The notes under the pieces are model-generated. The model saw only the letters and a list, made by a program, of their open reading frames with translations, ran no database searches and was not told the origin of the DNA. A DNA stretch of 64,000 nucleotides from Escherichia coli (GTDB lineage: Bacteria; Pseudomonadota; Gammaproteobacteria; Enterobacterales; Enterobacteriaceae): assembly GCF_003790525.1 (NCBI RefSeq), contig NZ_CP033635.1; one strand, written 5' to 3'. Positions 32,787 through 33,199 of the stretch are shown piece after piece. Position 1 is the first letter of the stretch; each line of letters starts with the position of its first letter. Both the position numbers and the translations under genes were made by a program.

Positions 32787-33170
32787 TTGCGCCTTTATTC
32801 CGTTTCGGTGACAGGTTATTTTAAATATTCTGGAAATGCGTTGATGGGCAAGAACAATTACCCTGAAAATAAATACAGGAAATGGTTTTCCACAGCAATA
32901 ACATATCTTATTACAGGTGGTTTGTGCTGGTATATGTTGTGGGCATCCGCTATATCTCATTATACTGTTTTACAAAATACGGTACCTGAATGGACAACAT
33001 ATTTTTGCACCGGTATAATCACCGGATCTCTTTCTTTTATTTATGCATTTTATATCCGCACCTTTAACAGAACATTAAAGTCTTTATTAAATGCATTCAC
33101 GGGGGGATTTTGTCTTGGATTTATACTGAGTCCTGATGAATCCCCTAATGATTTTGATAAAAATCATTAG
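32787..33170 (+). CDS. hypothetical small membrane protein (uncertain)
   Basis: ORF with 3 hydrophobic helices; 3' end overlaps the papA-remnant junction and a 21-bp palindrome. Confidence 0.2.
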   Translation: MRLYSVSVTGYFKYSGNALMGKNNYPENKYRKWFSTAITYLITGGLCWYMLWASAISHYTVLQNTVPEWTTYFCTGIITGSLSFIYAFYIRTFNRTLKSLLNAFTGGFCLGFILSPDESPNDFDKNH

Positions 33171-33199
33171 GGGATTCATCAGTGCTTGACCTTGTTTAA

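What the first reader, a model, noticed from the sequence alone, without database searches (positions are those of the whole stretch)
33135..33180. Perfect 21-bp inverted repeat at the junction between the dGTPase block and the papA stub
gatgaatcccctaatgatttt and its exact reverse complement are separated by 4 bp, forming a 46-bp palindrome located where pilin-coding sequence gives way to unrelated DNA. A perfect palindrome of this length is unlikely by chance and could be a recombination site, a protein operator or the end of a mobile element.
Basis: seen in the sequence. Interest (0 to 1): 0.35.

Follow-up and report, generated by a model that had tools for sequence, protein, structure and literature searches.

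The report
Leftover scar of transposon Tn10
The palindrome is the well-known 50-bp scar left when the tetracycline-resistance transposon Tn10 deletes almost all of itself, here marking where a Tn10 that had broken the pilus gene papA once sat; it is an ordinary, already-described kind of feature.

Summary
The palindrome is real and slightly larger than reported. It has perfect 23-nt arms and a 4-nt centre, 50 bp in all, at 33133-33182. Each arm is bp 1-23 of the IS10/Tn10 outside end. The 50 bp are exactly the product of a deletion between the two 24-bp direct repeats near the ends of Tn10, the classical "nearly precise excision" remnant.

Thirty-five complete E. coli genomes still carry a full IS10 at the identical papA junction. 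In strains D10 and O78-3 a 9,147-bp Tn10 sits in papA between 9-bp duplications TGCTTGACC. Simulating the deletion on that Tn10 gives only two products, and one is the window's sequence. Intact papA has no palindrome.

The window's two flanks (TACTGAGTC and TGCTTGACC) do not match. The parent Tn10 was therefore probably a recombinant between two Tn10 copies, one in papA and one in a hypothetical gene beside the dGTPase gene. Strain 98206 shows this process with swapped 9-bp flanks. The window's own "before" state was not found.

The element has no promoter, no terminator tail and no Rfam match, so it is most likely an inert scar. Verdict: already known, low interest.

The parts
33133..33182 (.). 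50-bp Tn10 nearly-precise-excision remnant (the whole palindrome)
   Evidence: It is identical to one of the only two products of a simulated deletion between the 24-bp repeats of papA::Tn10 in strain D10 and of Tn10 in plasmid R100. RefSeq leaves it unannotated.
33133..33155 (+). Left arm, equal to IS10 outside end bp 1-23 reading inward
   Evidence: It matches bp 1-23 of full-length 1,329-bp IS10 copies in XL1-Blue and EPI300.
33156..33159 (.). 4-nt centre GATA, which is the reverse complement of bp 24-27 (TATC) of the IS10-left-type outside end
   Evidence: The EPI300 IS10, the papA-proximal end of D10 Tn10 and the gltS-proximal end of R100 Tn10 all read GATA in this orientation. The other end reads GGTA.
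33160..33182 (-). Right arm, equal to IS10 outside end bp 1-23 of the papA-proximal IS10
   Evidence: Window 33146-35505 is 100% identical to D10 L009 14164-16523, which runs from inside the right end of Tn10 into papA, papB and papI.
33146..33169 (.). The single retained copy of the 24-bp repeat (TAATGATTTTGATAAAAATCATTA) across which the deletion occurred
   Evidence: The repeats lie at Tn10 positions 14-37 and 9111-9134 and are 23/24 identical.
33183..33191 (.). TGCTTGACC, the right copy of the 9-bp target duplication of the original papA::Tn10 insertion
   Evidence: D10 and O78-3 have TGCTTGACC on both sides of a 9,147-bp Tn10 in papA.
33124..33132 (.). TACTGAGTC, the presumed left half of the target duplication of a second Tn10 insertion
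   Evidence: It is joined exactly to the IS10 terminus. It fits the relaxed IS10 target consensus NPuCNNNGPyN at 4/4 specified positions (consensus from PMC4574204). In PCN033 the gene continues uninterrupted past this 9-mer.
33183..33458 (-). papA 5' stub (92 native codons), reading on through the scar for 31 further non-native codons
   Evidence: RefSeq annotates a partial papA missing its C-terminus. The missing papA 3' part lies on the other side of Tn10 in D10.
32844..33132 (+). Truncated hypothetical membrane-protein gene (96 of 189 codons) downstream of the dGTPase-family gene
   Evidence: It is intact at 189 aa in PCN033 and UPEC 26-1. Window 28640-33132 is 99.93% identical to PCN033 up to the break.

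Best explanation
The palindrome is the 50-bp remnant left by 'nearly precise excision' of transposon Tn10.

Step 1 (shown in relatives): a 9,147-bp Tn10 inserted into papA at codon 92 and duplicated the target TGCTTGACC.

Step 2 (inferred): a second Tn10 copy sat at TACTGAGTC in the hypothetical gene next to the dGTPase-family gene. Homologous recombination between the two Tn10 copies joined the dGTPase island on the left to the papA-papB-papI stub on the right. The result was one Tn10 with mismatched 9-bp flanks.

Step 3 (the product is shown, the mechanism comes from the literature): during replication the nascent strand slipped between the two 24-bp direct repeats at Tn10 bp 14-37 and 9111-9134. 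The long inverted IS10 arms help by bringing these repeats together. The slip deleted 9,097 bp, including tet(B) and both transposase genes. What remains is 13 + 24 + 13 = 50 bp: two 23-bp outside-end termini around a 4-nt centre. The GATA centre shows that the switch happened within the first 11 nt of the repeat, so the centre comes from the papA-proximal IS10.

Today the element is most probably an inert scar. It has no transposase, no IS10 promoters and no complete IHF site. It cannot be removed by precise excision because its flanks are not direct repeats. It permanently marks the inactivation of papA and of the hypothetical gene.
For: - **Identity with IS10 ends.** The arms equal bp 1-23 of the outside end of full 1,329-bp IS10 copies.
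- **Parent element in relatives.** 35 complete E. coli genomes have a full IS10 at the identical papA junction at 99.5-100% identity. In D10 and O78-3 it is a complete tet(B) Tn10 of 9,147 bp with a perfect TGCTTGACC duplication.
- **Simulation.** A deletion between the 24-bp repeats of that Tn10, or of R100 Tn10, gives only two 50-mers: the window's (GATA) and the GGTA variant.
- **Before/after pairs with identical flanks.** AR_0089 has a full Tn10 where PKF4 has the 50-bp scar, between IS1133 and papA. R100 and NR1 have a full Tn10 at parB target GGCAGAGCG where many IncF plasmids have the scar.
- **Swapped flanks in strain 98206.** The scar is flanked TGCTTGACC / CACTCGGCT and the Tn10 is flanked CACTCGGCT / TGCTTGACC. 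This is the signature of Tn10 x Tn10 recombination followed by collapse of one copy.
- **Chimeric window.** The left side is 99.93% identical to the PCN033 island. The right side is 100% identical to D10 from inside the Tn10 end onward.
- **Foreign to papA.** Intact papA lacks the palindrome.
- **Literature.** Nearly precise excision of Tn10 is cited to Ross et al. 1979 and Foster et al. 1981. It is attributed to copy-choice between short direct repeats, helped by the inverted repeats (d'Alencon et al. 1994, as summarised in PMC12524634).
Against: - No genome in the complete-E. coli collection, and no metagenome contig, has a full Tn10/IS10 at the window's left junction or at the reciprocal junction. 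Step 2 is therefore inferred by analogy.
- The window's flanks are not a 9-bp direct repeat, unlike a classical remnant of a simple insertion.
- The order of steps 2 and 3 is not established.
- The primary 1979 and 1981 papers could not be read here. The '50 bp / 24-bp repeat' details rest on my own knowledge together with the sequence simulation.
- 'Inert' is an inference from missing parts, not a measurement.
Confidence: 0.9

Rival explanations
1. The 50-bp element is a miniature non-autonomous transposon (MITE) made of two IS10 ends. IS10 transposase supplied in trans moved it to this junction.
For: It has two intact transposase-recognition termini. Scars occur at several unrelated sites in 427 of 5,426 complete genomes. 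Three of them have perfect 9-bp duplications, which insertion would also produce.
Against: The window copy has no target duplication (TACTGAGTC vs TGCTTGACC). Its right joint is base-for-base the joint of a full Tn10 in 35 genomes. For both scar sites that were tested, papA and parB, a full Tn10 exists at the same 9-bp target. From general knowledge of Tn10 synapsis, two ends only 4 bp apart cannot be bent into a paired-end complex.
Confidence: 0.03
2. The scar identity is the same, but the mismatched left flank arose by a transposase-mediated adjacent deletion from the left end of papA::Tn10 into TACTGAGTC on the same molecule, and not by homologous recombination between two Tn10 copies.
For: The left joint is exactly at the IS10 terminus, and the 9-mer fits the IS10 target consensus 4/4. 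No second Tn10 copy or reciprocal product was found. IS10-promoted adjacent deletions are reported at low frequency (my recollection of Roberts et al. 1991, not checked here).
Against: In Tn10-bearing relatives the dGTPase block is not on the pap island. The D10 pheV island lacks it. Strain EC12 has the two loci about 800 kb apart. The documented route for another chimeric flank is Tn10 x Tn10 recombination. Left and right sides have different closest relatives, which fits import plus recombination.
Confidence: 0.15
3. The palindrome is a native functional element of the host locus: a protein operator, a site-specific recombination site or a transcription terminator for papA or the dGTPase block.
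For: It is perfectly symmetric, forms a very stable hairpin as DNA or RNA, and lies between convergent genes.
Against: It is absent from intact papA and from the uninterrupted hypothetical gene in PCN033 and UPEC 26-1. It is identical to transposon ends. There is no T/U run after the stem on either strand, so the terminator scan does not call it. No Rfam family comes near its gathering score, and the only hits are generic hairpin matches at E = 0.3-0.8.
Confidence: 0.01
4. The palindrome is an assembly artefact, produced by collapse of the long inverted IS10 repeats.
For: Inverted 1.3-kb repeats are hard to assemble.
Against: The identical junction is present in 128 independently assembled complete genomes. 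The breakpoints fall exactly in the 24-bp direct repeats, as the biological mechanism predicts.
Confidence: 0.005

Closest known systems
Tn10 'nearly precise excision' remnant (Ross, Swan & Kleckner 1979; Foster et al. 1981)
   Same: Same sequence class and same size: 50 bp made of two IS10 outside-end termini around one copy of the 24-bp subterminal repeat. It is produced by a deletion between short direct repeats that removes tet and both IS10 bodies.
   Different: The window copy is not flanked by a 9-bp direct repeat. Its parent Tn10 evidently had chimeric flanks, so the classical third event, precise excision of the remnant, cannot restore either gene.
The scar in the parB-like gene of IncF plasmids, descended from the R100/NR1 Tn10 insertion
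   Same: The same 50-mer apart from the centre, with a full Tn10 at the same target in the ancestral plasmids.
   Different: It has a GGTA centre and a perfect GGCAGAGCG duplication. It is plasmid-borne and found across Escherichia, Klebsiella and Salmonella plasmids.
[quoted passage not shown]
   Same: Two terminal inverted repeats of an IS with no coding capacity.
   Different: Here there is no evidence of mobility and no target duplication. The 4-bp interior is far shorter than in functional MITEs. Origin by in-situ deletion is documented.
Tn10/IS10-mediated cointegrates and deletions, with IS copies acting as portable homology
   Same: The chimeric flanks and the strain 98206 structure show Tn10 copies acting as crossover points that assemble resistance and virulence island mosaics.
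   Different: In the window the portable homology has since erased itself, and only the 50-bp footprint is left.

Membership tests
Tn10 nearly-precise-excision remnant | Both termini are the IS10 outside end (bp 1-23) in inverted orientation | tested here: met
   The arms are identical to bp 1-23 of full IS10 copies in XL1-Blue, EPI300, D10 and R100.
Tn10 nearly-precise-excision remnant | Exactly 50 bp, equal to the product of a deletion between the 24-bp subterminal direct repeats | tested here: met
   The simulated deletion on D10 and R100 Tn10 yields only two 50-mers, and one equals window 33133-33182.
Tn10 nearly-precise-excision remnant | A full Tn10 occupies the same junction in related genomes (the 'before' state) | tested here: met
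   Met for the right (papA) junction: 35 genomes, with a 9,147-bp Tn10 in D10 and O78-3. Not found for the left junction.
Tn10 nearly-precise-excision remnant | Flanking 9-bp direct repeat. This is expected only when the parent was a simple insertion, so it is accessory and does not define the excision product. | tested here: not met
   The flanks are TACTGAGTC and TGCTTGACC. Chimeric flanks are explained by Tn10 x Tn10 recombination, as documented by the swapped repeats in strain 98206. Scars at parB, L016 and L017 do have perfect repeats.
Tn10 nearly-precise-excision remnant | Formation is independent of transposase and RecA, by replication slippage (copy-choice) | not testable with these tools
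   Literature only.
MITE (non-autonomous IS10 derivative) | Target-site duplication at each copy, and copies at sites that never held the parent element | tested here: not met
   The window copy has no duplication. Both scar sites examined for a parent have a full Tn10 at the same target.
Intrinsic (Rho-independent) terminator | GC-rich stem followed by a T/U run | tested here: not met
   The scan finds no terminator at 33133-33182, and the flanks lack T runs.
Any curated structured RNA (Rfam 15) | Score at or above the family gathering threshold | tested here: not met
   The best overlapping hits score 20-28 bits against thresholds of 44-95, with E = 0.3-0.8. They are generic hairpin matches.

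The most novel reading that the evidence does not exclude
The 50-bp scars may not be fully dead. Each keeps two intact transposase-binding termini. In the many strains that carry active IS10, a scar end might pair with a distant IS10 end and mobilise or rearrange the DNA in between. Here that could be the adjacent ISCR2-floR-tet(A)-strAB-sul2 module. A scar might also act as a transposase-induced break and recombination hotspot that drives island mosaicism. Scars occur in about 8% of complete E. coli genomes, so this would be a widespread cryptic substrate.
Probability: 0.05. Interest if true: 0.4.

Novelty: already known. Interest (0 to 1): 0.1.

Why it matters
It matters little as biology, because the element type was described in 1979-1981. 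Its practical value is for annotation and genome history. The 50-mer is unannotated in RefSeq, yet it records unambiguously that a tet(B) Tn10 once sat here. It explains why papA and the neighbouring hypothetical gene are truncated. It also pinpoints the crossover that fused a dGTPase/defence-type island to a pap stub carrying a multiresistance module. Recognising such scars, which occur in 427 of 5,426 complete E. coli genomes, helps reconstruct how resistance islands and IncF plasmids descended from Tn10-bearing ancestors such as R100.

Tried and rejected
- **Left-junction parent.** I searched the complete E. coli genomes for a full IS10/Tn10 at the window's left junction and at the reciprocal junction, an IS10 end joined to TACTGAGTC and the rest of the hypothetical gene. 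I also scanned metagenome contigs for the left junction. None was found, so the window's direct parent is unsampled.
- **Simple scar.** I searched for a scar with papA on both sides and found none.
- **Scan of one genome per species.** The scan for the 50-mer returned one hit, a 'Streptomyces morookaense' contig. It is the IncF parB scar and therefore contamination, and it says nothing about distribution.
- **Rfam and terminator/promoter scans** found nothing meaningful at the palindrome.
- **Literature.** Searches for 'IS10 remnant', 'Tn10 remnant' or 'Tn10 scar', and for papers on this pheV/pap/Tn10/sul2 locus, found nothing relevant. The primary papers (Cell 1979 and 1981, EMBO J 1994, J Bacteriol 2000) are not held.
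- **Rejected ideas.** Operator, site-specific recombination site, terminator, assembly artefact and MITE insertion. The reasons are given under rival explanations.

Full report
**Observation.** The repeat finder gives two perfectly complementary 23-nt arms, 33133-33155 and 33160-33182, separated by 4 nt (GATA). That makes a 50-bp palindrome. The 23-mer occurs nowhere else in the window, against 0.00 expected in shuffles. As single-stranded DNA the region folds into one hairpin of -24.7 kcal/mol with z = -10.6. A uniform-base estimate gives about 2e-8 such repeats per 64 kb. The context is as described. On the left are a dGTPase-family gene (31512-32744) and a small membrane-protein ORF. On the right, on the minus strand, are a papA 5' stub, papB and papI.

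**Identity.** The arm sequence is the outside end of IS10, which RefSeq annotates as ISVsa5. A full 1,329-bp IS10 in XL1-Blue tonB begins CTGATGAATCCCCTAATGATTTTGGTAAAAATCATTAAG. A copy in EPI300 ends AATGATTTTGATAAAAATCATTAGGGGATTCATCAG. The two copies differ at 10 positions, including bp 24, 25 and 27, which form the centre of the palindrome. No other IS10 sequence is present in the window. The palindrome is thus two IS10 outside-end termini (bp 1-23) facing each other with almost nothing between them.

**Ancestral state.** The exact window junction occurs in 128 complete E. coli genomes, where it is unannotated. A chimeric query made of an IS10 end plus the papA flank found 35 complete genomes with a full IS10 at the identical papA junction. 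In strains D10 and O78-3 this IS10 is the right arm of a complete Tn10 carrying gltS, tetR(B), tet(B) and tetC. The Tn10 is exactly 9,147 bp and sits in papA between perfect 9-bp duplications TGCTTGACC. The 3' part of papA, then papH and papC, are still present on the other side. The left end of that Tn10 has centre GGTA and the right, papA-proximal end has GATA. Plasmid R100, the classical source of Tn10, has the same 9,147-bp element with the same two end variants. Intact papA of this allele (ATCC 11775, S88, APEC O1 and others) matches the reconstructed empty site at 100% in one piece.

**Mechanism of formation.** The first 37 bp and the last 37 bp of Tn10 each contain the 24-mer TAATGATTTTG(G/A)TAAAAATCATTA, in direct orientation, at positions 14-37 and 9111-9134. 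The two copies are 23/24 identical. I simulated a deletion at every register within this repeat. Only two products are possible, both 50 bp. One is exactly the window's sequence (GATA) and the other is the GGTA variant (the same result with R100 Tn10). This is the event known as nearly precise excision of Tn10, cited to Ross, Swan & Kleckner 1979 and Foster et al. 1981. It is attributed to copy-choice slippage between short direct repeats, helped by the flanking inverted repeats (d'Alencon et al. 1994, as summarised in PMC12524634). The primary papers are not in the library. The '50 bp / 24 bp' details therefore rest on my own knowledge, corroborated by the simulation.

Two natural before/after pairs with identical flanks support in-situ collapse:
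- AR_0089 has IS1133 | Tn10 | papA', and PKF4 has IS1133 | 50-bp scar | papA'.
- R100 and NR1 have parB::Tn10 with target GGCAGAGCG, and many IncF plasmids have the scar between the same 9-mers.

**The mismatched flanks.** The window's 9-mers are TACTGAGTC on the left and TGCTTGACC on the right, so they are not a duplication. The left flank is a 189-codon hypothetical gene cut after codon 96. It is intact in PCN033 and UPEC 26-1, where the sequence simply continues past TACTGAGTC. Window 28640-33132 is 99.93% identical to PCN033. Window 33146-35505 is 100% identical to D10, starting inside the Tn10 end. The island is therefore a chimera whose seam is the scar. TACTGAGTC fits the relaxed IS10 target consensus NPuCNNNGPyN at all four specified positions (consensus from PMC4574204), as expected for a transposase-made joint.

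Strain 98206 shows how such chimeras arise. There the papA 3' part is followed by TGCTTGACC | scar | CACTCGGCT, then strA-strB-aphA1 and the Tn5393 tnpA, tnpR and IS1133, then CACTCGGCT | full Tn10 | TGCTTGACC and the papA 5' stub. The 9-mers are swapped. This is the signature of homologous recombination between a papA::Tn10 and a Tn5393::Tn10, followed by collapse of one copy. By analogy, I infer for the window a second Tn10 at TACTGAGTC, Tn10 x Tn10 recombination, and then nearly precise excision. That parent was not found in complete genomes or metagenome contigs. A transposase-mediated adjacent deletion remains a minor alternative for this one step.

**Present function.** The scar lacks the transposase gene, the IS10 promoters and a complete IHF site. 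It has no T-run, so it is not called as a terminator. Rfam gives only generic hairpin matches far below threshold. Transcripts crossing it would form a strong hairpin (-39.1 kcal/mol for the 90-nt segment), but nothing suggests that this is used. The papA stub (92 codons) reads through the scar into 31 non-native codons, and the hypothetical gene gains 12. Its identical presence in 128 genomes from varied hosts shows that a palindrome of this size is stably maintained. The best reading is an inert molecular fossil. It cannot be removed by precise excision, because it has no flanking direct repeats.

**Distribution.** Full-length scars occur in 453 records from 427 of 5,426 complete E. coli genomes. 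Of these records, 150 are GATA-type and 303 are GGTA-type. They occupy at least six sites, and three of the sites I examined have perfect 9-bp duplications: GGCAGAGCG, TACCAGGTG and TGCAAAGCT.

**Verdict.** The element is an already-known kind, and interest is low.

Noticed in passing
L004 1501-1550; L018 (R100) 10671-19817: The 50-bp scar in the ParB/RepB/Spo0J-like gene of many IncF plasmids (E. coli, Klebsiella, Salmonella) lies at exactly the 9-bp target GGCAGAGCG where plasmids R100 and NR1 carry the original 9,147-bp Tn10. These plasmids therefore appear to descend from a Tn10-bearing R100-like ancestor that lost Tn10 by nearly precise excision. RefSeq annotates the gene as frameshifted, without noting the scar.
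   Followed up: partly
L014 (NZ_JABBXF010000164.1, 'Streptomyces morookaense' contig164) 2308-2357: This 4.9-kb contig in a Streptomyces assembly is 100% identical to enterobacterial IncF plasmid DNA, including the parB Tn10 scar and its duplication. It is almost certainly contamination of that assembly.
   Followed up: yes
L015 (E. coli 98206, NZ_CP173544.1) 20001-36962: The structure is: papA 3' part, 50-bp scar, strA-strB-aphA1 and Tn5393 tnpA/tnpR/IS1133, full Tn10, papA 5' stub. The 9-bp flanks are swapped, so a resistance segment was integrated by Tn10 x Tn10 recombination and one Tn10 then collapsed.
   Followed up: yes
L009 (D10) vs L011 (AR_0089) vs L018 (R100), Tn10 interiors: The central tet segment of Tn10 is inverted in D10 relative to AR_0089 and R100, while the outside ends keep the same GGTA/GATA polarity. 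The left IS10 of AR_0089 is a hybrid, with GGTA at bp 24-27 but A at bp 47. This indicates inversion or gene conversion by recombination between the inverted IS10 arms.
   Followed up: partly
window 35506-42409: Relative to D10, where ISCR2 is followed by glmM' and sul2, the window carries an extra segment of about 6.9 kb with floR, a LysR gene, tet(A)/tetR(A) and strB-strA between ISCR2 and sul2. This is a chromosomal multiresistance module next to the pap stub. The papI 3' end overlaps the truncated ISCR2 transposase annotation.
   Followed up: no
window ~20900-32744: Left of the scar lies a cluster that looks like a phage-defence and nucleotide-metabolism island: type I R-M subunits, a DEAD/DEAH helicase, a MazG-like protein, an XRE regulator, a thymidylate-synthase-like gene, a frameshifted IS3 and a dGTPase-family gene. 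The dGTPase and thymidylate-synthase pairing may be a nucleotide-depletion defence module.
   Followed up: no
window 46242-48770: The island backbone (ProQ/FinO-like, YagK/YfjJ-like and HTH genes) resumes here at only about 93% identity to PCN033 and about 97.5% to D10. The left of the scar is 99.9% PCN033-like. The right boundary of the imported segment is therefore not resolved.
   Followed up: partly
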